This document shows, one piece after another, positions 14,670 to 54,331 of a stretch of 64,000 nt of DNA (positions are counted from its first letter, which is position 1; every line of letters starts with the position of its first letter). The translations under genes were made by a program, and so were the position numbers. Under the pieces are notes generated by a model that saw nothing but the letters and a program-made list of their open reading frames with translations, did no database searches and was not told where the DNA came from. The stretch is from an uncultured Actinomycetes bacterium (GTDB lineage Bacteria; Actinomycetota; UBA4738; HRBIN12): NCBI GenBank assembly GCA_964640965.1, contig CAZXJB010000001.1, positions 6,150 to 70,149 on the forward strand, written 5' to 3'.

Positions 14670-14875
14670 GGCTCCCCCCGACCCGGCACGATCACCGCGG
14701 CGACCGAGAGCGCCGCCGCGGCGACCGAGAGCGCCGCCGAGACCCACAGCCGCCCCATGCCCCGCAGCTCGTCCAGCACCGCCCAAGCCAGGAACGCCGC
14801 CGCGAGCAGCAGGAGCCCGAAGGCGGCCCCGTACAGCCCGAGCGCGAGCGCCGTCGGCCGCCCGCCCCTCCTCAC
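14666..14875 (-). CDS. small two-TM membrane protein, 69 aa
   Basis: A GTG start overlaps the glyS stop (cTGTGAgg). Two hydrophobic helices are predicted. The gene contains a 21-bp perfect tandem duplication. Confidence 0.35.
14698..14739. repeat. 21-bp perfect tandem duplication (gcggcgaccgagagcgccgcc x2), in-frame, duplicating 'AALSVAA'
   Basis: The repeat is read directly. Confidence 0.9.
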
Positions 14876-27453: not shown

Positions 27454-28836
27454 ATGCAGCGGCAGGGAACGTTGACGGCGAAGGAGCTCGAGGAGCTCGC
27501 CGACGCCGGTGAGGTCGACACCGTCCTGTGCATGTTCACCGACCTGCAGGGCCGGTTCATGGGCAAGCGCGTGATCCCGCACTTCTTCCTCGAGGAGATC
27601 CTCGGCGAGGAGGGCCTGCACGCGTGCCTGTACCTGCTCGCGATCGACATGGAGATGGAGCCGCTCCCCGGTTACCGGTACGCGAGCTGGGAGACCGGCT
27701 ACGGGGACTTCCGCATGGTCCCCGACCTGTCGACCCTGCGCTGGTGCCCGTGGCTCGAGAAGACCGTCATGGTGATCTGCGACATCGCCGACGAGGAGAC
27801 GCGGGAGCCGGTCGAGGTCGCGCCGCGCCAGATCCTGAAGCGGCAGATCGAGCGGGCCGCCCAGAAGGGCTACGTCTTCAAGACCGGGTCGGAGCTGGAG
27901 TTCTACCTCTTCAAGGACTCCTACGACGAGATCGCGGACTCCGGCTACCGGAACCTGCGGCCCACCTCCTCGTACATCATGGACTACCACATGCTCCAGA
28001 CGACGAAGGACGAGTGGGTCATCCGGCAGATCCGCAACGGCATGCTCGGTGCGGGGCTCCCCGTGGAGTTCAGCAAGGGCGAGTTCGGCAAGGGACAGCA
28101 CGAGATCAACATCACCTACGCGGACGCGCTCACGACGGCCGACTACCACGCCTTCTACAAGCACGGGGTCAAGGAGATCTGCGCGGCCAACGGCGTCGCC
28201 GCGACCTTCATGGCCAAGTGGTCGATGGCCGAGGCTGGGTCATCCTGCCACATGCACTCGAGCGTGTGGAACGCCGACGGCAGCGAGTCCCTGATGTGGG
28301 AGGAGTCGGCCCCGCACCACCTCTCGGAGACGGCGCGCTACTTCCTCGGCGGCCTCCTCGCGACCGCCCGTGAGATGGCCTGGATGTACGCGCCGTTCGT
28401 GAACTCCTACAAGCGGTACCAGCTGGGCTCGTGGGCGCCCACCGCGATCGTGTGGAGCCGCGACAACCGCACCTGCGGCTTCCGGGTGGTCGGGGAGCAC
28501 AAGGGCCTGCGGATCGAGAACCGGATCCCCGGCGCCGACGTGAACCCCTACCTCGGCTACGCGGCCACGATCGCGAGCGGTCTGTGGGGGATCGAGAACC
28601 GGGTGGAGGCGCCCGAGATGTTCGTCGGGAACGCCTACGAGGCCAAGGACGTCCCGCGCGTCCCGACCGCCCTCCACGAGGCGATCGAGACGTTCCGGGG
28701 AAGCCAGGTCGCCCGCGAGGCGTTCGGCGACTTCGTGTTCGAGCACCTGTTGAACACGGCGGAGCAGGAGCAGATCATCTTCGACAACACGGTCGTGACG
28801 GACTGGGAGCTCGCCCGCTACTTCGAGCGCGGCTGA
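27454..28836 (+). CDS. glutamine synthetase family protein (GS type I-like, gamma-glutamyl-ethanolamide/polyamine synthetase GlnA4/PuuA-like)
   Basis: The GS catalytic domain is recognisable ('ELEFYLF', 'KGEFGKGQHEINI', 'NSYKRY'). It sits immediately downstream of the ethanolamine-type permease. Confidence 0.9.
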   Translation: MQRQGTLTAKELEELADAGEVDTVLCMFTDLQGRFMGKRVIPHFFLEEILGEEGLHACLYLLAIDMEMEPLPGYRYASWETGYGDFRMVPDLSTLRWCPWLEKTVMVICDIADEETREPVEVAPRQILKRQIERAAQKGYVFKTGSELEFYLFKDSYDEIADSGYRNLRPTSSYIMDYHMLQTTKDEWVIRQIRNGMLGAGLPVEFSKGEFGKGQHEINITYADALTTADYHAFYKHGVKEICAANGVAATFMAKWSMAEAGSSCHMHSSVWNADGSESLMWEESAPHHLSETARYFLGGLLATAREMAWMYAPFVNSYKRYQLGSWAPTAIVWSRDNRTCGFRVVGEHKGLRIENRIPGADVNPYLGYAATIASGLWGIENRVEAPEMFVGNAYEAKDVPRVPTALHEAIETFRGSQVAREAFGDFVFEHLLNTAEQEQIIFDNTVVTDWELARYFERG

Positions 28837-34639: not shown

Positions 34640-35968
34640 CTAGAAGAGCTCCAGGTACTCCCGCTGCTCCCAGTCGGTGATCCAGTCGTTGAACCGGGCG
34701 AGCTCGTAGCGCCGCATGACGAGGTAGGCCGTCACGAACTCCTCGCCGAAGAAGGCCCGGGTGGCCGGCTCCGCCTCGAACGCGTCGAGGGCCTCCTGGA
34801 TCGAGGTCGGGAGCTTCTCGAAGTCCTCGTCGTCCTCCGCGGGGATCCCCGGCTTGGAGGTCGGTCCCGGCTCGATCCGAGCCTCGATCCCCTGCAGACC
34901 GGCCTGCAGCAGCGCCGCGCCGATGAGGTAGGGGTTCGCGAGCGCCGAGGGGGCGCGGTACTCGAGGTGCCGCGACTGCAGCGAGCCCCCCTTCACACGC
35001 ACCAGCGCCGAGCGGTCCTCCAGTCCCCAGGAGACGTTCGTCGGGCTGAAGGTGTGGCGCCGGCGCCGTCGGTGGCAGTTCACGGTCGGAGCGATCACGG
35101 CGTCGATCGCCTTGGCGTACCGGAGCAGACCGCCGACGAAGTATCGGCAGGCCTCGGAGATCCCCAGCTCGTCCCCGTCGTCGCCGAACGCGTTCGTGCC
35201 GTCGTCCAGCCGCACGAGGGAGACGTGGGTGTGGTTCCCGCAGCCGGCCGAGCCGGCGAAGGGCTTCGACATGAAGGTCGCGAGCAACCCGTCCTGCCGC
35301 GCGATCTCCTTCACCCCGTTCCGGAAGGTGAACGCGTCGTCCGGACCCTTCAGCCCCCGGCTCGCCGCGCACGGGATCTCCCACTGCGAGCCCGCGTACT
35401 CGCAGTTCGCGGTGATGACCGACACCCCGATGCGCGGCATCTCCTCCAGGATGCGCCGGATCGTCGGCACGTAGTCGTTCCGGACGGTGTTGAAGATGTG
35501 GTACCCCTCGAACAGCGGCTCGTGCGTCTGCCCGTCGAGCAGGTAGAACTCGTACTCGGTCCCGATCACCGGCTCGAACCCCATCGCCCGACAGCGCTCG
35601 AGCGCCCGGCGGTACACGTGGCGCGGGGTCGCCTCCAGCGGGCTGCCGTCGTACCAGGTCGCATCGCAGATGAACCGACCGGTCGCCTCCACCCAGGGGA
35701 CCACCGCGGCGGTGTCGGGGTCGGGGTGCAGCAGCTGGTCCCCGTACATCCGCTCCTCGTTGTAGAGCGTGCCGGGGACCACGTCGGAGCGCGTGTCCAG
35801 GACGGAGGTCCCCCCGTACATGTTCAGCCCACGCTCGGCGTACCCGTCCGCGTGCTCGATCGGGACCGTCTTCGAGCGCGAGATGCCGTGCATGTCCGGG
35901 AGCTCGAACCGCACGAACCGGATCCCGTCGCTGCGCCACCGCTCGAGGATGGCTCCAACCTCGCTCAC
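34640..35968 (-). CDS. glutamine synthetase family protein (gamma-glutamylpolyamine synthetase GlnA2/GlnA3-like)
   Basis: The GS catalytic domain is recognisable ('GTEYEFYLL', 'NCHRRRR...'). An AGGAGGG RBS precedes GTG 35968 with a 5-nt spacer. Confidence 0.9.
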   Translation of the reverse strand: MSEVGAILERWRSDGIRFVRFELPDMHGISRSKTVPIEHADGYAERGLNMYGGTSVLDTRSDVVPGTLYNEERMYGDQLLHPDPDTAAVVPWVEATGRFICDATWYDGSPLEATPRHVYRRALERCRAMGFEPVIGTEYEFYLLDGQTHEPLFEGYHIFNTVRNDYVPTIRRILEEMPRIGVSVITANCEYAGSQWEIPCAASRGLKGPDDAFTFRNGVKEIARQDGLLATFMSKPFAGSAGCGNHTHVSLVRLDDGTNAFGDDGDELGISEACRYFVGGLLRYAKAIDAVIAPTVNCHRRRRRHTFSPTNVSWGLEDRSALVRVKGGSLQSRHLEYRAPSALANPYLIGAALLQAGLQGIEARIEPGPTSKPGIPAEDDEDFEKLPTSIQEALDAFEAEPATRAFFGEEFVTAYLVMRRYELARFNDWITDWEQREYLELF

Positions 35969-36012
35969 CTCATCCCTCCTTGTGCGTCGCCTCGCTTCGC
36001 CCCCGAGCTCAC

Positions 36013-36408
36013 CTACTCCGAGGCCACGGCGCTCACCCACCGCAGCAGGTCCCGCTCCGTGACGATCCCGACGAGTCGGGTCCCGTCGAGGACCGCCAGC
36101 CGGCGGACCCCCTTCGCGTTCATCAGGTCGAACGCCTGCTGGATGTCCGTGTCCGGGCGCACGGCGTGCACGGGCGCCGACATCACCTCTCGGATCGGTC
36201 GCCCAAGCAGGTCCGGATCGCCGAGGATCCGCCGGGTCAGGTCCCGCTCGGTGAAGATGCCGACCGCGTGATCGCCCTCGGTCACGAGGACGGATCCGAT
36301 GTCGTGCTCGACCATCGCTCGGACGGCGCTCGAGACCGGATCATCGGGCGCGACGCCGACCACGTTCACCGTCATGATCTCCCCGACCGCATCGGGCGCC
36401 TTCGTCAT
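36013..36408 (-). CDS. CBS-pair domain protein
   Basis: Two CBS motifs are present. A GGAGGGG RBS is present. Confidence 0.8.
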   Translation of the reverse strand: MTKAPDAVGEIMTVNVVGVAPDDPVSSAVRAMVEHDIGSVLVTEGDHAVGIFTERDLTRRILGDPDLLGRPIREVMSAPVHAVRPDTDIQQAFDLMNAKGVRRLAVLDGTRLVGIVTERDLLRWVSAVASE

Positions 36409-36474: not shown

Positions 36475-38421
36475 TCACCGCCGGGAGCCCGTTCGGGACG
36501 CTCGGCGTCCGGCACCTCGCTCCCCGCGCGGTCCCGCGGGCGCCGTGAGCTCGCGGAGGCGGATGATCCGCAGGGCCATCATGAGGTCGAACCACCGAGC
36601 GGTCTCCGTCACGTCGAGCTCGGCCACCTGTCGGATCTTCTGGAACCGGAGCCGCAGGGTGTTCCGGTGCACGAAGAGGCGCTCGGCCGCGAGCTTCGCG
36701 TTCCCCATGCACTCCAGGTACACCTCGACGGTGCGGAACAGGTGGGTCCCCTTGGCCCGATCGTGCTCCACGAGGCGGTGCAGCCGCTCCTGGTAGACGT
36801 CCCGGACCTGCTGCTGCGCCACGTGGAAGAGGTGCCACTGGGCGCCGAGCTCGTCGAAGGTCACCGCCGCCCCCGGACCGCGGGTCGCGCGACCGATCAG
36901 CAGCGCGTTCCTCGCCTCCTCGAAGGCGTCCGGGTAGTCGTCCACGGCGCGGCAGAGCCGCGAGACCCCCACCGACACGAGCACGTCCTGACGTCGCTCG
37001 TGCGGCCGCTTCAGCTCGCACAGCCGCTCGGCGAGGCGATCCAGGCTCGTCGCCGGGGCCACGCGCAGGAGCGCCGTCAGCGTGTGGTCCCGATGCGTCG
37101 CGAGCGACCCCGGGAACCCACCCATGAGGTCCTGCCGGAGGGCCGACCACAGCCGATCGACGTCCGCCCCGCCGGTGCCCGCGGCGATCTCGAAGGCCGC
37201 GACCACGTGCGGCTGCCCGAGGTCCACCCCGAGCCGCAGCGCGCGACCCTCGAGGAGCTGCGCGTCGTCCTCACCGCGCGCGAGCGCCTCGAAGAGGTCG
37301 CGCACGACGTTGCGCTCCGTGAGGGTCTCGATGAGCCTCGCGTTCTGGACGGCGAGCGCCGCCTGGGACGCCAGGGTCAGCAGGAGCTCGCCGTCCTCCC
37401 GGTGCGGCGTGCCGGCCGATCTCGAGAGGCACGCGAGCACGCCGATCACGCGCTCCGACACGCGCATCGGCGCCACGAGCGCCGAGCGGGCCTGCGGCGC
37501 GATCAGGTCGAAGGCCCGGAAGGCCTCCGCGTGCTCGCGCCGCGACAGGGCGAGCGCCGAGGTCGCGCCGAGGAGCCGCGCCCACACCCCGTCCGCCGGA
37601 AGCGTCGGCGGCGGCCCGCCCATCGAGCCCGGCACGGCCTCCCAGAAGGCCTCGACCCCCAGGTGCCCGCCGGCCTCATCGAGCGCGAGGATGGCGGACC
37701 GGTCCGCCGCCACGAGCATCGCCGCCGTGCCGGCCAGCCGGTGCAGCACATGCCGCAGGGAGGAGGTCTGCACGACCGCCTGGCCGGCCTCCGCGAGCGT
37801 GTTCAGGACCTGCACCTGCCGGGCCTGCCGCTCGTACAGCTGCGCGTTCTCGACCGCCGTCGCGATGAGCACCGAGAGGGTGTTCATGAGGATGAGGTCG
37901 TCGTCGTCGAAGCGGTGGGGCGCCTCGGTGTGCATCGTGATGACGCCGATGAGCCGCCCGTTCGCGGAGATCACCGGGATCGTGAGGTAGGACTGGTACC
38001 GATCGTCGTTCAGCTCCGGGAAGCGCTTGAACCGAGGATCCTGGGTGGGGTTCTCCGTGATCATCCCCGGCTGGCGCGTGAGCGCGGTCCAGCCCGTGAG
38101 CCCCTCACCGAGGGCGAGCCCGAACCGACCGATCCACCGCTCGTAGCCCTCCACCCCCGCGCGGACGATGAGCCGCTCGCTCTCCTCGTCCCAGAGGTAC
38201 ACGAGGGCCCCGTGGCACCCGGTGAGCTCCTTGCAGAGGTGGACGACGTAGTCGAGCAGCTTGGCGACGTCGAGCGTCGAGGCCAGGCTCGCGAGGATCC
38301 CGAAGAGCGCCTCGGTCTCGCGCCGCTTGTCCCGGAGCATCTGACGCAGGGCCCGGGCGGCCTCCGCCGGCGGGGTCGCGAGGCCCCGTCGGGCGCTGCG
38401 GTGGGCCGCGGATCTCGTCAT
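36475..38421 (-). CDS. GAF-GAF-PucR(CdaR)-type transcriptional regulator
   Basis: Two GAF domains are followed by a C-terminal PucR HTH ('LFVHRNTLRLRFQKIRQV'). ATG 38421 has a GGAGG RBS. The upstream 174 codons of the track ORF were rejected. Confidence 0.8.
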   Translation of the reverse strand: MTRSAAHRSARRGLATPPAEAARALRQMLRDKRRETEALFGILASLASTLDVAKLLDYVVHLCKELTGCHGALVYLWDEESERLIVRAGVEGYERWIGRFGLALGEGLTGWTALTRQPGMITENPTQDPRFKRFPELNDDRYQSYLTIPVISANGRLIGVITMHTEAPHRFDDDDLILMNTLSVLIATAVENAQLYERQARQVQVLNTLAEAGQAVVQTSSLRHVLHRLAGTAAMLVAADRSAILALDEAGGHLGVEAFWEAVPGSMGGPPPTLPADGVWARLLGATSALALSRREHAEAFRAFDLIAPQARSALVAPMRVSERVIGVLACLSRSAGTPHREDGELLLTLASQAALAVQNARLIETLTERNVVRDLFEALARGEDDAQLLEGRALRLGVDLGQPHVVAAFEIAAGTGGADVDRLWSALRQDLMGGFPGSLATHRDHTLTALLRVAPATSLDRLAERLCELKRPHERRQDVLVSVGVSRLCRAVDDYPDAFEEARNALLIGRATRGPGAAVTFDELGAQWHLFHVAQQQVRDVYQERLHRLVEHDRAKGTHLFRTVEVYLECMGNAKLAAERLFVHRNTLRLRFQKIRQVAELDVTETARWFDLMMALRIIRLRELTAPAGPRGERGAGRRASRTGSRR

Positions 38422-38531
38422 CGCCGACCTCCGGGAGACGCCGAACGCTACCACCCGCCGCGCCCGATGGGAAGACGTGCGGAACAGTGCATCCCGCACA
38501 CGCGCCGACCCGGGCGCTCGACCGGGGGTCG

Positions 38532-39827
38532 CTACACCGCCCGGATGTAGCGCTCGCGCTCCCAGTCCGTCACGGTCTCCTGCCACGCCTTCAGCTCCCA
38601 CTCGCGCGAGGTGACGAAGTACCGGCTGAACGCCTCCCCGAGGGCCCCTCGCAGCCCGGCGTCCTCGCGGAACGCCCCGATCGCGGCCTCGAGGGAGCCG
38701 GGAAGCAGCGGGAGATCGGTCCTCGCGTAGGCATCCCCCGACTCGGCCGGAGGGGGGATGAGCCCCCGGCGCACGCCGTCGGCCGCCGAGGCGGCGATCG
38801 CCGCCAGGGCGAGGTACGGGTTGGCGTCGGCCCCGGGCCGGCGGCACTCGAAGCGCCACAGCTCGGGTCGGGCCGAGCGGATCGCGCGCACCGCGCAGGA
38901 CCGGTTCTCGTAGCCCCAGGTGGCGTTGATCGGCGCGAACCACCCCGGGACGAGCCGCTTGTACGAGTTGATCGTGGGGTTCAGCAGGAGCGATGCCGCC
39001 GGGAGGTGCTCGAGCAGCCCGGCGACGGCCGAGCCGAAGACCTCCGGGAGGGGCTCGCCGGGGTCGGCCCCCGCGAAGGCGTTCACGTCCCCCCGCCAGA
39101 AGGACATGTGGACGTGGCCGCTCGAGCCCTCCTCCCCGGGGACCGTCTTCGCGAGGAAGCTCGCTCGGAAGCCCATCGAGGCGGCCACCTGCTTCACGGC
39201 GAACTTCACGAGGGCCGCGTCGTCCGCCGCCCGGAGGCCGCGCCCGGGGGCCAGGTTCAGCTCGAGCAGCCCCGGACCGGCCTCCGTGTGCACGGCGGAG
39301 AGCCCCACCCCCAAGCCCTCGAGGGCGCGCACCAGCTCGTCGAGGAACCGGGCGTAGCCCCCGATCTCGTTGATGCTGTAGCTGATCCCCGTGGAGGTCG
39401 GCTGGCCCCGCTCGTCGAAGATGCGGATCTCGTACTCGATCGCCGCCATGACCTCGTAGCCGAGCTCCCCGACGTCGGCGAGGACCCGCCGATAGACCTC
39501 ACGGGTCGCGTACGCGCACGGGGAGCCGTCGGGCCAGCTCGGCGTGACCAGGCACAGCCGCCAGCCCGGGCGCCAGGTGAGCTCCCGCACGGAGTCCGGC
39601 TCGGGGTGGACGACCAGGTCCGGCGCCCCGACCCGGATCCCGAAGCGCTCGTAGTCCGAGATCGGGGTGTCGACGGGGTCGAGCCCGAGGAGCAGATCGG
39701 TCATGACCGTCCCGCGCTCCACCGCGGTCTCGAAGGCCGCGGGCCGCAGCGCCTTGCCGCGCAGCGACCCGTTCACGTCGGGCATCGCGAGCAGGATGAA
39801 CTCCTCGTGGGCGTCCGCGCCGCTCAT
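38532..39827 (-). CDS. glutamine synthetase family protein (gamma-glutamylpolyamine synthetase-like)
   Basis: The GS domain is recognisable ('EYEIRIF', 'SGHVHMSFW', 'NSYKRL'). ATG 39827 overlaps the upstream stop (ATGA). Confidence 0.9.
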   Translation of the reverse strand: MSGADAHEEFILLAMPDVNGSLRGKALRPAAFETAVERGTVMTDLLLGLDPVDTPISDYERFGIRVGAPDLVVHPEPDSVRELTWRPGWRLCLVTPSWPDGSPCAYATREVYRRVLADVGELGYEVMAAIEYEIRIFDERGQPTSTGISYSINEIGGYARFLDELVRALEGLGVGLSAVHTEAGPGLLELNLAPGRGLRAADDAALVKFAVKQVAASMGFRASFLAKTVPGEEGSSGHVHMSFWRGDVNAFAGADPGEPLPEVFGSAVAGLLEHLPAASLLLNPTINSYKRLVPGWFAPINATWGYENRSCAVRAIRSARPELWRFECRRPGADANPYLALAAIAASAADGVRRGLIPPPAESGDAYARTDLPLLPGSLEAAIGAFREDAGLRGALGEAFSRYFVTSREWELKAWQETVTDWERERYIRAV

Positions 39828-41188
39828 CGCCGCCCTCCGGCCAGCCGGTCCTTGATCCGCCGCTCGACGTCGACCATCGTCTCGGCCAGGCGCTCGAGCA
39901 TCTGCGTCAGCTCCTCCTCCGTGCTCGTGTAGGCCGGCGCGAACACCGTCTGGTCCCCCGCGTAGCCGTCCGCCTGGGGGTGGGTCGAGGTCACGAGGAG
40001 ACCGTGCTCGAGGGCCGCGTCGTCCACGAGCGCCCCGGCGTCGAGCTCCACGGGCAGGAAGGACCCCCCATCCCGCGGGTCCACGAGCTCGAACCCGAGC
40101 AGGAACCCCCGACCCCGGACCTCCCGCACGATCTCGCGTCCGGCGAGCGCCGCCCGCAGCTCCTCCAGCAGCCGCGGCCCCCGCTCCCGCACGCGCGTCA
40201 CGAGATCGCGCTCGAGGAGCAGGTCGATCACCCGCAGCCCGACGGCGCAGGACAGCGGCGCGCCGTCCCAGGTGTGGCCGAGGTCGAACTCCCGCGAGCC
40301 GCGGTCGACGGCCTCGTAGACGTGCGAGCGACATAGCACCGCGCCGAGGGGGGCGTGCCCGGCGCCGAGCGCCTTCCCGACCGCGACGATGTCGGGCTCG
40401 ATCGGCACCTGATCGGCCGCGAGCCAGGTCCCGACCCGACCGATCCCGGTCACGACCTCGTCGAAGCAGAGGAGGAACCCGTGGCGCTCGCGGCGCTCGG
40501 CCAGCCCCCGCCAGAACCGGTCGGGCGGCGCGTGCCCGGGCAGGGCTGCGGCGCCCACCGGCTCGCAGAGGAACGCCGCGATGCTGTCCCCCTCCGCCTC
40601 GAGGATCCGGTCGAGCGCCGCGAGCGCCGCCTCCCCGTCGGGATCGCCCGGACGCCCCGGCGGCGGGATGTGGCGGTGGTCGGCCAGGTACGGGGTGTAC
40701 GGCTCCTGCAGCGCCCGACGCCCGGTCAGCGCGAGCGTCCCCATCGTCGAGCCGTGGTAGGCCTGGGCCTGCGAGACCACGCGCCAGCGCCGGGTCTCGC
40801 CCCGCTCCACGTGGTACAGGCGGGCGAGCTGGACCATGGTCTCGACCGCCTCCGACCCGCCGGAGACGAAGCGGACCCTGGCCATGCCCGGCGCGACGAC
40901 CTCGGTCAGCCGCTCGGCCAGCCGCTCCTGAGGACCGCTCGTGAAGTGGTGGTTGTAGAAGTACGAGATGCGCTCGGCCTGCTCGGCCGCGGCCGCCGCG
41001 AGCTCGGGCACGCCGTGCCCGAGGCAGGTCACCATCGCCCCGCCGGAGCAGGCGTCGAGGATGCGCCGTCCGTCGACGGTGGTGAGCCACACCCCCTCGC
41101 CGCGCTCGACCTCCGGGTAGGCGAGGTCGAGGAAGCGGGGGAACACGTGCGTGGCGTCCGCCGTCACCGAGCCCGCCACCCGACTCAC
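39824..41188 (-). CDS. class III PLP-dependent aminotransferase
   Basis: The AT-III fold is recognisable ('FDEVVTGIGRVG', 'VAVGKALGAG'). GTG 41188 overlaps the upstream stop (GTGA). Confidence 0.85.
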   Translation of the reverse strand: MSRVAGSVTADATHVFPRFLDLAYPEVERGEGVWLTTVDGRRILDACSGGAMVTCLGHGVPELAAAAAEQAERISYFYNHHFTSGPQERLAERLTEVVAPGMARVRFVSGGSEAVETMVQLARLYHVERGETRRWRVVSQAQAYHGSTMGTLALTGRRALQEPYTPYLADHRHIPPPGRPGDPDGEAALAALDRILEAEGDSIAAFLCEPVGAAALPGHAPPDRFWRGLAERRERHGFLLCFDEVVTGIGRVGTWLAADQVPIEPDIVAVGKALGAGHAPLGAVLCRSHVYEAVDRGSREFDLGHTWDGAPLSCAVGLRVIDLLLERDLVTRVRERGPRLLEELRAALAGREIVREVRGRGFLLGFELVDPRDGGSFLPVELDAGALVDDAALEHGLLVTSTHPQADGYAGDQTVFAPAYTSTEEELTQMLERLAETMVDVERRIKDRLAGGRR

Positions 41189-41907
41189 CCCGCCCTCGTG
41201 GCGAGGCCGGCGTCCCCGCGGCCGAGCCCGGCGATCCCCTCGAGGAAGCCCTCGAAGAGCCGCCACGCCATGGCCTTGCTCGCCTCGGCCCGACGGCGGG
41301 TCTCCTCGAGGAGCGCATCGGGGTCCACGCCCTCGGCGTCGAGCTCGTGCCGGTAGGCGCGCACCCACTCGTCCATGATCCCCACCGTCACCTCGGGGTG
41401 GAACTGGAGGCCGAGGCTGCGCCCGGCCACGAACGCCTGCGGCCCGGCGTCGGACTCCGCGATGAGCGTGGCCCCCTCGGGGACGGTGAACGAGTCGAAG
41501 TGCCACTGGAACCACGGGCCCTCGGGGACGAGGTCGGGGCGTGAGCTCCGCACCGGCAGCCACCCGATCTCGGCGGTGGCGCGGAACCCCTCGCCCCCGA
41601 GGACCCGGGCGAGCAGCTGACCGCCGAAGCAGAGCCCCAGGATCGGCACGTCCGCCCCCACCGCCCGCTCCATGAGGCGCGCCTCCCTCTGGACGAACGG
41701 CTTCGTGTCGTCGAAGGCCGCGAACTCCGAGCCGAGCGAGACGATCAGGTCGAAGCGGCGGGGGTCAACGTCGCGCTCCTCGAGGTCGATGCGGTAGACG
41801 TCCACGTCGGCTCCGTGCTCGGCGAGCCACTCCGTCACGTGGCCCGGCGGCGTCGGGTCCTCGTGCTGGAGGATCAACGCCCGAAGGGGCCGATCGATCC
41901 CGGTCAT
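41185..41907 (-). CDS. class I glutamine amidotransferase-like protein
   Basis: 'ILGLCFGGQLL' and 'LQFHPE' are present. An AGGAGGTGGGG RBS precedes ATG 41907, with an ATGA overlap. Confidence 0.8.
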   Translation of the reverse strand: MTGIDRPLRALILQHEDPTPPGHVTEWLAEHGADVDVYRIDLEERDVDPRRFDLIVSLGSEFAAFDDTKPFVQREARLMERAVGADVPILGLCFGGQLLARVLGGEGFRATAEIGWLPVRSSRPDLVPEGPWFQWHFDSFTVPEGATLIAESDAGPQAFVAGRSLGLQFHPEVTVGIMDEWVRAYRHELDAEGVDPDALLEETRRRAEASKAMAWRLFEGFLEGIAGLGRGDAGLATRAG

Positions 41908-43277
41908 CCCCCCACCTCCTGCTTGGTCATCGGGTGCGCGTCGAGCTCGGCCTCGACCTCGTCCCACACGGCGCGGACCGCGTCGGCGAACCGGGCCACC
42001 ATCTCCCCGAGCTCCTCCTCGGGCGTCGTGAAGGGCGGCGCGAACAGGGTCTGGTCGCCCGCGTAGCCGTCCCGCGTCGGCTGGGTCGAGAGCGTGATGA
42101 GCCCCCGCTCGAAGGCGGCCCGGTCGATCCTGCCCGCCACGCGCAGCTCGGGCGGGAGGAACGAGGTGCCGTCGCGCGGGTCGGCGAAGGACACCCCGAG
42201 CAGGAAGCCGTGCCCGCGGACCTCCTGCACGATGGGGATGCCCTCCAGGGCGACGGCGAGCGCCTCGCGCAGCCCCGGACCCCGCTCGGCCACGCGCTCC
42301 ACGAGCCGCTCCGAGCGCAGCGCCTGCAGGACGGCGAGCCCGACCGCGCAGGCGAGCGGCGCCCCATCCCAGGTGTGCCCGAGGGGGAACCGCCGCGATC
42401 CCGTCGCGATCGCCTCGTACACGTGCCCCGCGCAGAGCACGGCGCCGATCGCCGTGTACCCCGCGCCCAGGCCCTTCGCGGTGGCGATGATATCCGGGGC
42501 GCAGGGGGTGGCCTCGCCGGCGAACCACCGACCGGTCCGCCCGACGCCCGTCACGACCTCGTCGAAGCAGACGAGGAAGCCGTGCCGCTCCCGGCGCTCC
42601 GCGAGCCCCTCCCAGAACCTGCGCGGCGGCGTGTACGCCGGGAGGGCCGCCGAGCTGATCGCCTCGCAGAAGAAGGCCGAGACGTTCTCCGGACCGGCCT
42701 CCTCGAGCGCCGCGTCCAGGGCCGCGAGGGTCGCCTCCCCCGTGGGGTCGAAGCGGGGGGTGGCCGGCGGGATGTGCAGGTGACGGGCGAAGTACGGCGT
42801 GAACGGGCCCTGGAGCCCGGGCCGACCGGTGAGCGCGAGGGTCTCCATCGTCGGCCCGTGGTAGGCCTGCGCTGGGGAGATCACGATCCAGCGCTGCGGC
42901 TCGCCGCGCTCGACGTGGTAGCTGCGGGCGAGCTGCACGGCCATCTCGTTCGCGTCCGAGCCGCTCGTCACGAAGCGCACGCGCGTGAAGCCAGGCGGCG
43001 CCAGCGCCGCGAGCTCCTCGGCGAGGCGCTCCTGCGCCGGGTTCGTGAGCCGCTCGTTGTGCACGAAGGCGAGGCGCTCGGCCTGCGCACGGGCCGCGGC
43101 GATGATGTCCCGCCGACCGTGGCCGAGGGTGGCGGCCATGGACCCCCCGCTCATCGCGTCGAGGTACCGGCGCCCGTCGGAGTCCTCCACCCACGCGCCC
43201 TCGCCCCGCACGATCTCGGGGTAGTCGCGCCCCAGCTCGAGCTGGAAGACCCGGCTCGCCTCGTTCGAAACGCTCAC
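41904..43277 (-). CDS. class III PLP-dependent aminotransferase (paralogue)
   Basis: It is collinear with the 39824..41188 product. GTG 43277 has a GGGGAGGTGGG RBS. Confidence 0.85.
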   Translation of the reverse strand: MSVSNEASRVFQLELGRDYPEIVRGEGAWVEDSDGRRYLDAMSGGSMAATLGHGRRDIIAAARAQAERLAFVHNERLTNPAQERLAEELAALAPPGFTRVRFVTSGSDANEMAVQLARSYHVERGEPQRWIVISPAQAYHGPTMETLALTGRPGLQGPFTPYFARHLHIPPATPRFDPTGEATLAALDAALEEAGPENVSAFFCEAISSAALPAYTPPRRFWEGLAERRERHGFLVCFDEVVTGVGRTGRWFAGEATPCAPDIIATAKGLGAGYTAIGAVLCAGHVYEAIATGSRRFPLGHTWDGAPLACAVGLAVLQALRSERLVERVAERGPGLREALAVALEGIPIVQEVRGHGFLLGVSFADPRDGTSFLPPELRVAGRIDRAAFERGLITLSTQPTRDGYAGDQTLFAPPFTTPEEELGEMVARFADAVRAVWDEVEAELDAHPMTKQEVGG

Positions 43278-51850: not shown

Positions 51851-52284
51851 GGGACCCGCACCCCCGAGTACCGCTCCTGCAGGGCCCACATCCGAGCGCG
51901 CTCGTCCTCCTCCTCGTGGTCGTGCCCGAGCAGGTGCAGGATGCCGTGCACGAGCAGCAGCCGCACCTCAGCAGCCGGATCCGCCGGGTTGTTGCGGGCC
52001 GCCACGGCCGGGCAGATCACCACGTCGCCGAGCAGGCGGACGCTCTCCTCGTCCACCTCGTCGAGGGGGAAGGCGAGCACGTCCGTCGGACCGGGCTCGC
52101 CGAGGTACCGCTCTTGCAGCTCGGCCATCTCCTCCTCGGTGACGAAGGAGACCGAGAGCTCCGAGGCCGCCGCCCCCTCCCCGCGCAGGACGGCCTCCGC
52201 GAGCGCGACGAGCGCCTCCCGGTCGACCGGCCGGTCCTGCCGGTCGTCCACGAGCACCCTGGGGCTATGGTCCCCGTCAGCCAT
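51847..52284 (-). CDS. ybeY: rRNA maturation endoribonuclease YbeY
   Basis: The 'HGILHLLGHDH' zinc motif is present. Confidence 0.9.
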   Translation of the reverse strand: MADGDHSPRVLVDDRQDRPVDREALVALAEAVLRGEGAAASELSVSFVTEEEMAELQERYLGEPGPTDVLAFPLDEVDEESVRLLGDVVICPAVAARNNPADPAAEVRLLLVHGILHLLGHDHEEEDERARMWALQERYSGVRVP

Positions 52285-54331
52285 CGCCGCGCGCCCGTCG
52301 CTCCGCGTGCAGGCGGTACGCCTCCACGATGTCCTGCACGATCCGGTGTCGGACCACGTCCCGCGCCGTCAGGTGGACGAACTCGATCCCCTCGATCCCC
52401 GCGAGGATCTCCTCCATCATCGTGAGGCCCGAGGTCTGCCCCGGCGGCAGGTCGATCTGCGTGACGTCCCCGTTCACGACCACCTTGGAGCCGAACCCGA
52501 GCCGGGTGAGGAACATCTTCATCTGCTCCGGGGTGGTGTTCTGCGCCTCGTCCAAGATGATGAACGCATCATTCAGGGTGTTGTGCGTGACGAGGAAGTC
52601 CTCCGTGACGTACAGCCCATCCGCGGCAGCCACGGCGATGCACACGCTCTCACGCTCCCCGGCCGGCTCGATCGCCTCCACGTAGCGTCTGGGCGCGGCA
52701 CCGCCGATGGCGAGGTACGTCCGGAGCTTCCTCGTCAGCCGGAACGGCGCCATGCCCGGTGGCAGGCGGATGTCGAGGACGTGCGCGTCGGCTCGGTGGT
52801 GCACGGGGCGACCCTGGGCGTTGCCGGGAGGACGCCCGGCCGACGCCCGCACCCTCCGGTACACGACGCCGCCGAGGGAACGGACGAGGAAGACGACGTC
52901 GTCGGCCAGACGTGATGAGGTCGTCGAGTACTGGATCCGGCACCGCCGGCCCGCCTGCGTCACCGGTCCGCCGTCGGTGTCGAGCAGCCCCTGCAGGACC
53001 GCGAGACGCACCTCGGGCGTGTTCCACAGGTACTCCTCGGGCACGAACTTCGTTCCCGAGCGAACGCCCGCGAGACCGAGGTCCCGCAGGAGCTGCGTGA
53101 CGGGGTTCGCAACGATCACACCGCCTCGCCCGCCGGAACGGTTGCGCAGGACGTAGTCGCAACGACCCCGATGGACGAGCTCGATCCCCGGCAGCGCTTC
53201 CTCCAGCGCGAGGACGAGCTCCGGATCCCGGGTCGAGAACGACGGGGTCGTCGAGGTGGTCAAGCACCCATCGCCGAGGAGGAGGCCGAGCACGTAGGGA
53301 TCCAGCGGTACCTCCCGCGGCGCGAGCACGGCCGGTGCGGCGAGCAGCGGCAGCTCGAACCGATGGGCGTGCGCCGCACGCAGCCGGCCCACCATCTCCT
53401 CCGTCCGAAGGACGCGGTACCTCCGCCCGGAACGGCGATCGGCCGCGGTGCGGACGGCCCACAGGTGGTCCGCGGTGCAGAGCGTCGACGCCCCATCCTG
53501 GGCGTGCAGGCGGAACACCGGCTTGCGGCCCTGCGGATAGACGCCGAGCACGTAGGTCGGGGCGCCGTCCGACCCGATCACGAGGTCGCCGACGCGCAGC
53601 GAGCCGATCGGGATGAAGCCCGTGGGGGTCAGCACCAGGCTGTCCACCGGCTGGGCCCTGCCCCGCATGTAGGCGAGGGGGGCGACCTCGATCGTCCCCC
53701 GCTCCATGAGCCGCGGCAGGCTGTCTGCGCCGGTCATCTCGAACAGCGCGTCGTACAGCGGCTTCATGTAGGGGTCGATCTTCTCGTAGAGGGTCCCCGG
53801 CAGGAAGCCGAGCCGCTCGCCGGCCTCGACCGCCGGTCGCGTGAGGATGATGCGCGAGACCTGCTTGTCCTGGAGCGCCCGCACCGCCGTCGCCACCGCG
53901 AGGTAGGTCTTGCCCGTCCCCGCCGGCCCGATCGCGAACGTGACGGTGGCCCGCCGCATCGCGTCGACGTACCGCTTCTGCCCGAGGGTCTTGGGCGCGA
54001 TCCCCTTGCCCCGGCTCGTGAGCAGGACGTCGCCCAGGACCTCCGTCGGGCGCGCCTCCTCGCCCTTGATGAGCTCGATCGAGCGCCCGACGGAGGCCGC
54101 GGTGAGCTCGTGCCCGCGCTCGAGCAGCGCGACGAGCTCCTCGAAGAGGAGCCCCACGCGCTCGGCCTCCTCGGCCGGGCCCGTGATCGTGATCTCGTTG
54201 CCGCGGACCACGATCTCCGAGTCGAACGCCGCCTCGACGAGCTTGAGCAGCTCGTCGCGCTGACCGAGGAGGGCGACCATGGTGTGGTCACCGGGCACGA
54301 GGATCTTCACCTGGGTCCGCGTCTCACCCAA
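52277..54331 (-). CDS. phoH: PhoH-like P-loop ATPase interrupted by a 359-aa intein
   Basis: The extein reads 'GPAGTGKTY' (Walker A) ... 'IEVAPLAYMRGR' | intein | 'TLNDAFIILDEAQNTT'. The spliced host protein would be about 325 aa, the normal PhoH size. Confidence 0.85.
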   Translation of the reverse strand: MGETRTQVKILVPGDHTMVALLGQRDELLKLVEAAFDSEIVVRGNEITITGPAEEAERVGLLFEELVALLERGHELTAASVGRSIELIKGEEARPTEVLGDVLLTSRGKGIAPKTLGQKRYVDAMRRATVTFAIGPAGTGKTYLAVATAVRALQDKQVSRIILTRPAVEAGERLGFLPGTLYEKIDPYMKPLYDALFEMTGADSLPRLMERGTIEVAPLAYMRGRAQPVDSLVLTPTGFIPIGSLRVGDLVIGSDGAPTYVLGVYPQGRKPVFRLHAQDGASTLCTADHLWAVRTAADRRSGRRYRVLRTEEMVGRLRAAHAHRFELPLLAAPAVLAPREVPLDPYVLGLLLGDGCLTTSTTPSFSTRDPELVLALEEALPGIELVHRGRCDYVLRNRSGGRGGVIVANPVTQLLRDLGLAGVRSGTKFVPEEYLWNTPEVRLAVLQGLLDTDGGPVTQAGRRCRIQYSTTSSRLADDVVFLVRSLGGVVYRRVRASAGRPPGNAQGRPVHHRADAHVLDIRLPPGMAPFRLTRKLRTYLAIGGAAPRRYVEAIEPAGERESVCIAVAAADGLYVTEDFLVTHNTLNDAFIILDEAQNTTPEQMKMFLTRLGFGSKVVVNGDVTQIDLPPGQTSGLTMMEEILAGIEGIEFVHLTARDVVRHRIVQDIVEAYRLHAERRARGDG
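52580..53656 (-). other. intein with a LAGLIDADG homing-endonuclease domain inserted in the PhoH Walker-B-proximal region
   Basis: The N-terminal block 'AQPVDSLVLTPTGFIPIG' (Ala1) and the C-terminal 'LVTHN' followed by +1 Thr are present. LAGLIDADG-like motifs 'LGLLLGDGCL' and 'VLQGLLDTDGG' are present. Confidence 0.75.

What the first reader, a model, noticed from the sequence alone, without database searches (positions are those of the whole stretch)
52277..54331. PhoH ATPase carries a full-size LAGLIDADG intein with an atypical Ala1/Thr+1 junction
The phoH reading frame is 684 aa, about twice the normal length. The extra 359 aa sit exactly between the conserved 'PLAYMRGR' and 'TLNDAFIILDEAQN' segments, which are contiguous in canonical PhoH. 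The insert begins with an intein block-A-like 'AQPVDSLVLTPTGFIPIG' and ends 'LVTHN' followed by Thr. It contains two LAGLIDADG-type motifs ('LGLLLGDGCL', 'VLQGLLDTDGG'). Position 1 is Ala, not Cys/Ser. That implies either a class-2 (KlbA-like) splicing mechanism, which normally uses a +1 Cys, or a splicing-impaired or novel variant. I do not recall PhoH being a well-catalogued intein host, which makes this both a candidate new insertion site and a mechanistic curiosity.
Basis: partly seen in the sequence, partly recalled or inferred. Interest (0 to 1): 0.82.

Follow-up and report, generated by a model that had tools for sequence, protein, structure and literature searches.

The report
Class 3 intein inside PhoH gene
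The phoH gene of this high-GC actinobacterium is interrupted by a complete self-splicing intein with a homing endonuclease, but its unusual Ala1/Thr+1 junction is the textbook signature of the already described class 3 inteins and PhoH is an already catalogued host, so the finding is real but ordinary.

Summary
ORF 52277-54331 (-) encodes a 684-aa PhoH precursor. A 359-aa insert (aa 226-584, window 52580-53656) lies between ...PLAYMRGR and TLNDAFIILDEAQN.... Removing it restores a gapless PhoH.

The insert is a two-domain intein: a HINT splicing domain plus a double-motif LAGLIDADG endonuclease. The AlphaFold model has pLDDT 88.7 and TM 0.72 to PI-SceI.

The "atypical" junction is not a class 2 or novel mechanism. 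The insert carries every sequence mark of a class 3 intein (Tori et al. 2010): non-nucleophilic Ala1, the Trp-Cys-Thr triplet (block B:12 Trp66, block F:4 Cys339, block G:5 Thr357), His-Asn end and Thr+1.

At least 1180 database proteins carry relatives. The top 120 are all PhoH with the insert at the same site, and the triplet is invariant among them.

PhoH is a published intein host:
- 21 PhoH inteins are listed in Novikova 2016.
- M. smegmatis carries a PhoH intein.
- Class 3 PhoH inteins are aligned in Kelley 2018.

The three closest syntenic orthologues lack the intein, which fits a mobile element. Splicing and DNA cleavage were not tested here.

Verdict: a new member of a known kind, of low interest.

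The parts
52277..54331 (-). phoH precursor ORF, 684 aa, TTG start, stop at 52277-52279
   Evidence: ORF list. PhoH PF02562 E = 5e-89, matched in two stretches.
53657..54331 (-). N-extein, aa 1-225, ending ...VAPLAYMRGR. Contains Walker A GPAGTGKT (aa 135-142, window 53906-53929).
   Evidence: Pfam PhoH profile positions 2-117. Coordinates.
52580..53656 (-). Class 3 intein, 359 aa (precursor aa 226-584), from Ala1 to Asn359
   Evidence: Clean excision restores PhoH. Empty-site orthologues exist. Family profile E = 2e-194. AF2 model pLDDT 88.7, PI-SceI-like.
53618..53656 (-). Intein block A (AQPVDSLVLTPTG), with non-nucleophilic Ala1
   Evidence: Position 1 is Ala in 94 homologues, Ser in 16, with a gap (partial sequences) in 11 of 121 aligned rows. 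Aligns to block A of class 3 mini-inteins 6rix and 6bs8.
53453..53488 (-). Intein block B (STLCTADHLWAV): His64 (B:10) and Trp66 (B:12, the W of the WCT triplet)
   Evidence: His and Trp are invariant in 121/121 sequences. Aligned to HLW of gp41-1_WCT (6riz) and to HQW of MchDnaB1 (6rix).
52703..53320 (-). LAGLIDADG homing-endonuclease domain (approximately intein residues 113-318). Boundaries are estimated from the model's secondary structure.
   Evidence: PF14528 E = 8e-10. Foldseek matches to PI-SceI, I-DmoI and PI-PfuI. Secondary-structure elements.
53264..53290 (-). LAGLIDADG motif 1 (LGLLLGDGC), with catalytic-type Asp129
   Evidence: Aligns to PI-SceI LGLWIGDG (Asp218). Asp is invariant in 121/121.
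53039..53059 (-). SGTKFVP, with Lys203 aligned to PI-SceI Lys301
   Evidence: phmmer alignment to 1dfa. The Lys is invariant in alignments A1 and A2. That Lys301 is an active-site residue is from my own knowledge of PI-SceI.
52967..52996 (-). LAGLIDADG motif 2 (LQGLLDTDGG), with catalytic-type Asp228
   Evidence: Aligns to PI-SceI LAGLIDSDG (Asp326). Asp is invariant in 121/121.
52607..52648 (-). Intein block F (SVCIAVAAADGLYV), with Cys339 at F:4, the predicted initiating nucleophile
   Evidence: Cys in 120/121 sequences; the one exception is a truncated sequence. Aligned to the engineered Cys of gp41-1_WCT. Its role is taken from PMC2807308.
52577..52597 (-). Intein block G plus +1 (FLVTHN|T): Thr357 (G:5), His358 (G:6), Asn359 (G:7), Thr+1 (G:8, precursor Thr585)
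   Evidence: Thr and Asn in 120/121 and His in 121/121. The +1 residue is Thr in 116 and Ser in 4. Block numbering follows PMC2807308.
52277..52579 (-). C-extein, aa 585-684 plus stop, beginning TLNDAFIILDEAQN. Walker B IILDEAQN is at aa 591-598 (window 52538-52561).
   Evidence: Pfam PhoH profile positions 118-204. Coordinates.

Best explanation
This is a class 3 intein with an embedded double-motif LAGLIDADG homing endonuclease. It is inserted in the chromosomal housekeeping gene phoH (the ybeZ-type PhoH that sits next to ybeY), six residues upstream of the Walker B motif (IILDEAQN).

Inferred mechanism, following the published class 3 pathway:
1. The 684-aa precursor is translated.
2. Cys339 (block F:4) attacks the Arg225-Ala1 peptide bond, assisted by His64 and Trp66 of block B, and forms a thioester branched intermediate.
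3. The N-extein is passed to the side chain of Thr+1 (Thr585).
4. Asn359 cyclises and releases the intein.
5. An O-to-N acyl shift yields a 325-aa PhoH with ...MRGR-TLND... joined.

Ala1 is therefore expected for this class and is not a defect. At the DNA level, the endonuclease domain is predicted to cut intein-free phoH alleles at the ...ATGCGGGGCAGG|ACCCTGAATGAT... site and to spread by homing. This fits the patchy distribution across genomes.

What was shown here: the architecture, clean insertion, predicted fold, signature residues, family membership and patchy distribution. What is inferred: the splicing chemistry and the endonuclease activity.
For: - **Clean in-frame insertion.** The PhoH profile is split at position 117/118 and restored by deleting the insert. 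The spliced product aligns without a gap to 3B85.
- **Intein-free orthologues.** The syntenic orthologues L006-L008 read MRGR|(T/S)(L/V)ND with no insert.
- **Class 3 marks.** Ala1, Trp at B:12, Cys at F:4, Thr at G:5, His-Asn and Thr+1 are all present. W, C and T are invariant across 120 homologues that are 64-75% identical.
- **Sequence matches in the PDB.** The best matches are the class 3 MchDnaB1 intein (6rix, 6riy), the class 3 Msm DnaBi1 intein (6bs8) and the WCT-grafted gp41-1 intein (6riz).
- **Structure.** The AF2 model (pLDDT 88.7, pTM 0.89) matches PI-SceI at TM 0.72, E = 2e-18. Its splicing domain matches 6riz (rmsd 1.6 Å), 6rix (2.7 Å) and 6bs8.
- **Endonuclease.** PF14528 matches above threshold. 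Both motif Asp residues and a Lys align with PI-SceI D218, D326 and K301 and are invariant in the family.
- **Phage relatives.** Full-length relatives (34-43% identity) with the same AQP...H-x-W...QCI...VTHN|T pattern sit in phage terminase, DnaB and helicase genes. This fits the phage association of class 3 inteins mentioned in PMC5050341.
- **Literature.** Definition and mechanism of class 3 come from PMC2807308. PhoH as a host, including class 3 PhoH inteins, comes from PMC4760082, PMC6195587 and PMC7360933.
Against: - No experiment was done: splicing, the block F branched intermediate and DNA cleavage are all inferred from sequence and a predicted structure.
- The Pfam Hint models match only below their gathering scores: Hint_2 at 16.4 bits against 28.4, and Hom_end_hint at 14.3 against 32.1. 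Recognition of the splicing domain therefore rests on PDB sequence matches, the fold prediction and the motif alignment.
- In the papers I could read, PhoH inteins are only listed or aligned. I found no paper in the held library that tests splicing of a PhoH intein.
- This copy has Thr at block B:7 where 109 of 121 aligned sequences have Cys. Thr is the usual residue at this position in inteins generally (PMC2807308), so this is unlikely to matter.
- Grafting WCT onto a class 1 intein did not give splicing (PMC7664689). The triplet alone is therefore not sufficient proof of activity.
Confidence: 0.9

Rival explanations
1. It is a class 2 (KlbA-like) intein. With no residue-1 nucleophile, the +1 residue attacks the N-terminal splice junction directly.
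For: Ala1 is shared with the KlbA inteins (PMC2807308).
Against: Class 2 is defined as lacking the WCT triplet (PMC2807308). Here the triplet is present and invariant. The +1 residue is Thr, not the Cys used by KlbA inteins. The best sequence and structure matches are class 3 inteins. The known class 2 members are five archaeal KlbA orthologues, plus one putative Arthrobacter member.
Confidence: 0.02
2. It is a splicing-dead or domesticated insert. The 359 aa stay in the mature protein, or the gene is inactivated, and the intein motifs are relics.
For: No experimental evidence of splicing exists for this copy. One database relative (P0077, 357 aa) is truncated or disrupted in its C-terminal splicing part, so decay does occur in this family. 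An inactive class 3-like intein pseudogene is published, Arth_1007 (PMC3196547).
Against: The reading frame is intact across 2055 nt in a 72% GC genome. Every catalytic position is kept: His64, Trp66, Cys339, Thr357, His358, Asn359 and Thr+1. Those positions are invariant across 120 relatives of only 64-75% identity, which indicates purifying selection on splicing. The insert lies just upstream of Walker B in the ATPase core, where I expect 359 extra residues to disrupt the P-loop fold, so a functional PhoH requires removal (inference).
Confidence: 0.05
3. The intein splices, but its endonuclease is no longer active, so it is now inherited only vertically. This is the late stage of the homing cycle.
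For: The intein is only 75% identical to its nearest database relative, and there is no sign of very recent transfer. Intein identity and extein identity are weakly correlated, r = 0.27. Many full-length inteins have inactive endonucleases (general knowledge).
Against: Both LAGLIDADG Asp residues, the flanking Gly residues and the Lys aligned to PI-SceI K301 are invariant in the family. The endonuclease domain is modelled with high confidence. The closest syntenic relatives have empty sites, and the element occurs in scattered lineages (Micromonosporaceae, Acidimicrobiia, Mycobacterium, Saccharothrix, Meiothermus, Chloroflexota), which suggests continued mobility.
Confidence: 0.3

Closest known systems
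Mycobacterial PhoH inteins: M. smegmatis PhoH intein, and the M. fortuitum and M. xenopi 'PhoHi' class 3 inteins (Kelley et al. 2018, PMC6195587; Woods et al. 2020, PMC7360933)
   Same: Same host protein and class 3 signature. The mycobacterial relatives found here (P0099 from Mycobacterium sp., 66% identical, and M. sherrisii L005) sit at the same MRGR|...|TLND site and have the same length and LAGLIDADG domain.
   Different: This copy is in a different, uncultured high-GC Actinomycetota lineage. It is 64-75% identical to all database relatives. It has Thr rather than Cys at block B:7. I could not fetch the exact published accessions (OBK00716, EID13626), so identity to those was not measured.
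Class 3 inteins MP-Be DnaB, Msm DnaBi1 (PDB 6bs8) and MchDnaB1 (PDB 6rix, 6riy)
   Same: Non-nucleophilic residue 1, WCT triplet, Thr or Ser at +1, and a P-loop NTPase host. Direct sequence matches have E = 9e-7 to 1.5e-5, and the structures superpose.
   Different: Those hosts are DnaB helicases, with the intein at the P-loop. The solved structures are mini-inteins without an endonuclease. MP-Be starts with Pro1, and this one starts with Ala1.
Phage class 3 inteins in terminase large subunits and helicases, e.g. Mycobacterium phage Phrappuccino terminase and Xanthomonas phage LucasX DnaB
   Same: Full-length similarity (34-43% identity over all 359 aa), including the endonuclease. The AQP start, H-x-W, QCI and VTHN|T motifs are identical.
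   Different: These are inserted directly after the Walker A Gly-Lys (GK|intein|T), not after the RGR upstream of Walker B. The hosts are phage genes.
PI-SceI (yeast VMA1 intein, PDB 1ef0, 1lwt)
   Same: Two-domain architecture with a HINT domain plus a double-motif LAGLIDADG endonuclease. TM 0.72, and the active-site Asp/Asp/Lys align.
   Different: PI-SceI is a class 1 intein (Cys1, Cys+1), has an extra DNA-recognition region, and is about 17% identical.
Class 2 KlbA inteins
   Same: Ala at position 1.
   Different: KlbA inteins lack the WCT triplet and use Cys+1 for the first attack. This element has the triplet and Thr+1.

Membership tests
Intein (HINT-domain protein-splicing element) | In-frame insertion in a conserved host protein whose removal restores the uninterrupted host sequence | tested here: met
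   The PhoH profile becomes contiguous after deletion. The spliced product aligns without a gap to 3B85. Empty-site orthologues L006-L008 exist.
Intein (HINT-domain protein-splicing element) | HINT fold with splicing blocks A, B, F and G | tested here: met
   The AF2 model (pLDDT 88.7) matches intein structures: PI-SceI TM 0.72, and mini-inteins 6riz, 6rix, 6bs8 and NpuDnaB. Blocks A and B align to solved inteins by sequence. Pfam Hint models match only below threshold.
Intein (HINT-domain protein-splicing element) | C-terminal His-Asn followed by a Cys, Ser or Thr at +1 | tested here: met
   The sequence is ...VTHN|T. His, Asn and the +1 Thr/Ser are conserved in the family.
Intein (HINT-domain protein-splicing element) | Actual protein splicing, with ligated exteins and a free intein | not testable with these tools
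   This needs expression followed by SDS-PAGE or mass spectrometry.
Class 3 intein (Tori et al. 2010) | No Cys, Ser or Thr at intein position 1 | tested here: met
   Ala1 is present. In the family, 94 sequences have Ala and 16 have Ser. PMC2807308 also reports WCT-triplet inteins with an N-terminal Ser or Cys.
Class 3 intein (Tori et al. 2010) | Trp-Cys-Thr triplet at block B:12, block F:4 and block G:5 | tested here: met
   Trp66 lies two residues after the block B His. Cys339 is in SVCIAV. Thr357 immediately precedes His-Asn. The triplet is invariant in the family. It aligns to the W and C of gp41-1_WCT. Position numbering follows.
Class 3 intein (Tori et al. 2010) | [quoted passage not shown] | tested here: met
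   Thr585 is the +1 residue. The family has Thr in 116 and Ser in 4.
Class 3 intein (Tori et al. 2010) | Block F Cys is the obligate initiating nucleophile (block F branched intermediate) | not testable with these tools
   This needs C339A/S mutants and detection of the thiol-labile branched intermediate.
Class 2 (KlbA-like) intein | Lacks an N-terminal nucleophile and also lacks the WCT triplet | tested here: not met
   The WCT triplet is present. The definition is in PMC2807308.
Class 2 (KlbA-like) intein | Cys+1 attacks the N-terminal junction directly | tested here: not met
   The +1 residue is Thr.
LAGLIDADG homing endonuclease, double-motif, intein-encoded (PI-SceI type) | Two LAGLIDADG motifs, each ending in a catalytic acidic residue | tested here: met
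   LGLLLGD129G and LLDTD228G are present. PF14528 matches above threshold. The motifs align to PI-SceI D218 and D326 and are invariant.
LAGLIDADG homing endonuclease, double-motif, intein-encoded (PI-SceI type) | Pseudo-dimeric alpha-beta-beta-alpha-beta-beta-alpha fold inserted between intein blocks B and F | tested here: met
   The model matches PI-SceI, PI-PfuI, TliVMA, I-DmoI and I-Tsp061I.
LAGLIDADG homing endonuclease, double-motif, intein-encoded (PI-SceI type) | Site-specific cleavage of the intein-free allele | not testable with these tools
   There is only indirect support: empty sites in the nearest relatives and a patchy distribution.
PhoH family P-loop ATPase (PF02562, YbeZ type) | Full-length match to the PhoH domain with Walker A and Walker B motifs, and genomic linkage to ybeY | tested here: met
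   The spliced product matches PF02562 at E = 3e-96 over 2-204 of 205 positions and 3B85 at E = 9e-93. ybeY lies immediately downstream and overlaps the stop codon, followed by corC and era.

The most novel reading that the evidence does not exclude
The most novel reading not excluded is that this PhoH intein acts as a conditional (redox- or zinc-sensitive) switch. The catalytic Cys339 could be reversibly blocked, for example by a disulfide with the block B Cys60, as the catalytic Cys of the class 3 M. smegmatis DnaBi1 intein is blocked by H2O2 and zinc (PMC6195587, PMC7360933). PhoH ATPase, encoded in the heat-shock and ribosome-maturation cluster hrcA-dnaJ-HIT-phoH-ybeY-corC-era, would then mature only when stress is relieved. 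Nothing in my data tests this. It rests on analogy and on the conserved Cys residues in block B.
Probability: 0.12. Interest if true: 0.5.

Novelty: new member of a known kind. Interest (0 to 1): 0.15.

Why it matters
It matters little beyond correct annotation. The gene should be annotated as an intein-containing phoH with a 325-aa mature product, not as a 684-aa fusion protein.

The copy adds one more full-length class 3 intein with an apparently intact endonuclease, in an uncultured Actinomycetota lineage. The large and very uniform PhoH intein family seen here (over a thousand relatives with an invariant WCT triplet) could serve as a data set for studying class 3 sequence constraints.

One observation may interest intein specialists as a hint to how class 3 inteins move between P-loop NTPase hosts. 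PhoH copies sit after "GR|T", while their phage relatives sit after the Walker A "GK|T". This was not pursued.

Tried and rejected
- **Pfam Hint models.** PF13403 and PF05203 gave only sub-threshold matches. I relied instead on PDB sequence matches, a predicted structure and block alignments.
- **NCBIfam.** It gave only partial matches to intein-containing DnaB, GyrA, Tes and RecA models, and no PhoH-intein-specific model.
- **Class 2 reading.** Considered and rejected because the WCT triplet and Thr+1 are present.
- **Other inteins in the window.** A profile of the family against all six-frame ORFs hit only phoH.
- **RNA genes.** Rfam and tRNA scans of the window found nothing.
- **Tori & Perler 2011 (PMC3133030).** I tried to read this paper, which expands the class 3 definition, but it is not held.
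- **Cys339 geometry.** I wanted to measure the distances from Cys339 to the scissile bond and to Cys60 in the model, but the model coordinates are not exposed to scripts.
- **Foreign origin from composition.** The intein's GC3 is 0.89 against 0.95-0.98 for the exteins. This is suggestive only.
- **Organism.** The window's own genome was not found in the species-representative collection.
Full report
**1. The observation**

The window holds an ORF at 52277..54331 on the minus strand.

- The Pfam PhoH model (PF02562) matches in two stretches, and the first ends at profile position 117.
- When I delete residues 226-584, the remaining 325 aa match the profile in one stretch (positions 2-204 of 205, E = 3e-96).
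- The same 325 aa align without a single gap to the crystallised PhoH of Corynebacterium glutamicum (3B85, E = 9e-93). The junction peptide PLAYMRGRTLNDAF is identical in both.

The insert is 359 aa and occupies window 52580..53656. It starts AQPVDSLV... and ends ...FLVTHN, followed by Thr585. It lies six residues upstream of the Walker B motif IILDEAQN, and Walker A GPAGTGKT is in the N-extein. The only correction is numbering: the intein spans aa 226-584.

**2. What the insert is**

*Domain and sequence matches.*
- Pfam finds a LAGLIDADG_3 domain above its gathering score (39.3 bits against 22.5). The Hint models match only weakly.
- NCBIfam matches the insert to the intein parts of intein-containing DnaB, GyrA, Tes and RecA models.
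- Against PDB sequences, the N-terminal 80 residues match these entries:
  - the WCT-grafted gp41-1 intein (6riz, E = 6e-11);
  - the class 3 Mycobacterium chimaera DnaB-1 intein (6rix and 6riy, E = 9e-7);
  - the class 3 M. smegmatis DnaBi1 intein (6bs8, E = 1.5e-5).
- The middle part of the insert matches PI-SceI.

*Predicted structure.* I built an AlphaFold2 model from a 35-sequence alignment. It is confident, with mean pLDDT 88.7 and pTM 0.89.
- Foldseek places the whole model on PI-SceI (TM 0.72, E = 2e-18) and on other endonuclease-containing inteins (TliVMA, PhoVMA, PI-PfuI).
- The splicing domain alone matches the class 3 mini-inteins and other HINT domains.
- The middle domain matches the free-standing LAGLIDADG enzymes I-DmoI and I-Tsp061I.

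That condition is not met, so the element is a two-domain intein.

*Endonuclease active site.* The motifs align residue for residue with PI-SceI:
- LGLLLGD129G aligns with LGLWIGD218G.
- LLDTD228G aligns with LIDSD326G.
- GTK203FVP aligns with GVK301NIP.

**3. The "atypical" junction is the class 3 signature**

Tori et al. (PMC2807308) defined class 3 inteins by two features: the absence of an N-terminal Cys, Ser or Thr, and a covarying Trp-Cys-Thr triplet. Nearly all have Thr or Ser at +1. Kelley et al. 2016 give the triplet positions as block B:12, F:4 and G:5 (PMC5050341).

In this insert:
- Block B reads TADH64LW66, so Trp lies two residues after the block B His, which is position B:12.
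- Block F reads SVC339IAV, with Cys where standard inteins have Asp.
- Block G reads VT357H358N359 followed by Thr+1.

All four criteria that can be read from sequence are met.

Class 2 (KlbA-type) inteins are defined as lacking the triplet, and they use Cys+1. Both of those tests fail here.

The published class 3 pathway is as follows. The block F Cys attacks the N-terminal splice junction. The N-extein is passed to the +1 Thr/Ser. Asn then cyclises, and an acyl shift completes ligation. I adopt this as the most likely mechanism. It is inferred and was not shown here.

**4. It belongs to a large, uniform, already catalogued family**

*Database relatives.* A search of the 5.8-billion-protein collection with the insert alone returned at least 1180 hits with E <= 1e-5 among the candidates scored. 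The best 120 (64-75% identity, mostly full coverage) are all PhoH-family proteins carrying PF14528.

I aligned those 120 with the query, giving 121 rows:

| Position | Residues in the 121 aligned rows |
|---|---|
| -3 to -1 | R-G-R wherever present |
| Intein residue 1 | Ala 94, Ser 16, gap 11 (partial sequences) |
| His B:10 | 121/121 |
| Trp B:12 | 121/121 |
| Cys F:4 | 120/121 (the exception, P0077, is truncated) |
| Thr G:5 | 120/121 |
| Penultimate His | 121/121 |
| Terminal Asn | 120/121 |
| +1 | Thr 116, Ser 4 |
| Both LAGLIDADG Asp residues | 121/121 |

Intein length is 357-361 aa in 107 of the 121 sequences.

*Literature.*
- Novikova et al. 2016 list PhoH among bacterial intein hosts, with 21 inteins in Actinobacteria and Deinococcus-Thermus (PMC4760082).
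- Woods et al. 2020 state that M. smegmatis houses four inteins, one of them in PhoH (PMC7360933).
- Kelley et al. 2018 align class 3 PhoH inteins of M. fortuitum and M. xenopi with the WCT residues marked (PMC6195587).

Mycobacterial members of the family found here sit at the same site. They are P0099 from Mycobacterium sp. and M. sherrisii L005. PhoH is therefore neither a new host nor a new site.

**5. Mobility**

A scan of one genome per species found 587 PhoH relatives, of which the best 80 were kept.
- Five loci carry the long, intein-containing form: Rugosimonospora, an Acidimicrobiaceae MAG, Meiothermus, Saccharothrix xinjiangensis and M. sherrisii. All five read MRGR|AQP....
- The three closest extein relatives are uncultured Actinomycetota L006-L008, at 90% identity. 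They have a short phoH reading MRGR|(T/S)(L/V)ND.
- Those three loci share the hrcA-dnaJ-HIT-phoH-ybeY-corC-era order with the window, so they are true orthologues with empty sites.

Intein GC3 is 0.89, against 0.98 and 0.95 in the two exteins. Intein and extein identities to the homologues correlate only weakly, r = 0.27.

*Phage relatives.* PHROG families matched by the insert are intein-containing terminases, primases and helicases. tblastn finds full-length relatives (34-43% identity) in 575 phage records, 280 of them mycobacteriophages.

I aligned four of these phage copies: the Phrappuccino terminase, Xanthomonas phage LucasX DnaB, Clostridium phage phi8074-B1 and a Vibrio phage. They show the same AQP start, H-x-W, QCI and VTHN followed by Thr (Cys in Phrappuccino), and they are inserted right after a Gly-Lys.

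All of this fits a homing element that moves among P-loop NTPase genes. It agrees with the phage link for class 3 inteins noted in PMC5050341. Endonuclease activity itself is untested.

**6. Context**

phoH sits in a standard housekeeping cluster on the minus strand: lepA, a radical-SAM HemN-like gene (hemW-type), then hrcA, dnaJ, a HIT protein, phoH, ybeY (overlapping the phoH stop codon), a CNNM/CorC protein, era and recO. There are no phage or plasmid genes nearby. A family profile finds no other intein of this family in the window.

**7. Rivals**

- **Class 2 mechanism:** rejected on two failed defining features (confidence 0.02).
- **Splicing-dead relic:** unlikely, because the frame is intact and every catalytic residue is kept under family-wide invariance, but it is not excluded without an experiment (0.05).
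- **Splicing-competent intein with a dead endonuclease:** possible (0.3). This concerns only the mobility half.
- **Conditional splicing:** this is an elaboration rather than a rival, in which redox or zinc control splicing as in M. smegmatis DnaBi1. It is the most novel reading left open (about 0.12).

**8. Verdict**

The finding is real and precisely located, but it is an ordinary example of a described class in a described host. It is a new member of a known kind, and its closest database relative is 75% identical. Interest: 0.15.

Noticed in passing
Homologue set P0001-P0120 (alignment), intein position 1: 16 of 110 family members with position 1 present (e.g. P0015, P0020, P0023, P0028) have Ser1 instead of Ala1. 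They keep the full WCT triplet at the same PhoH site. Within one orthologous intein family the N-terminal nucleophile therefore seems to be gained or lost freely.
   Followed up: partly
window 53471-53473 (intein Thr61, block B:7): This copy has Thr at block B:7, where 109 of 121 aligned sequences have Cys, giving a conserved Cys-Cys doublet (B:6-B:7) next to the catalytic His/Trp. The role of that doublet in the family is unknown. One possibility is a redox partner for the block F Cys.
   Followed up: no
window 53657-53665 vs L081-L084: PhoH copies of the intein are inserted after ...R-G-R | T. Their phage relatives in terminase, DnaB and helicase genes are inserted after the Walker A ...G-K | T. 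The flanks are similar (Gly-basic | Thr), which might reflect how the element jumped between hosts.
   Followed up: partly
window 52580-53656 vs 52280-52579 and 53657-54331: Third-codon-position GC is lower in the intein (0.89) than in the N-extein (0.98) and C-extein (0.95). This fits a foreign origin that has been partly adjusted to the host genome's composition.
   Followed up: partly
P0077 (alignment): This 357-aa database protein consists of the intein only (PF14528, no PhoH domain). It starts inside block A and diverges before block F. It is probably a frameshifted or decayed copy, or a gene-calling artefact.
   Followed up: no
Hit list and loci: The same PhoH intein appears in records labelled Planctomycetaceae, Candidatus Omnitrophica, Chloroflexota, Candidatus Limnocylindria and Meiothermus, besides many Actinomycetota. 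This is either wide horizontal spread or mis-binned MAG contigs.
   Followed up: no
window 36478-41764 (-): A 1007-aa GAF/GGDEF-like/PucR-HTH regulator ORF and a 646-aa stop-to-stop ORF carrying a class-III aminotransferase domain (the true start was not determined) have lower GC3 (0.81-0.82) than most genes in the window (0.92-0.97). A second class-III aminotransferase lies just downstream (41904-43277), and two glutamine-synthetase-like genes lie at 27454-28836 and 34640-36040. This may be a polyamine or gamma-glutamylation catabolic cluster.
   Followed up: no
window 13365-14786 (-): A 473-aa ORF with coding-like composition (GC3 0.92) has no Pfam match at E <= 1e-5.
   Followed up: no
window 1-64000: There are no tRNA genes and no Rfam family matches at gathering threshold anywhere in the 64 kb.
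   Followed up: yes
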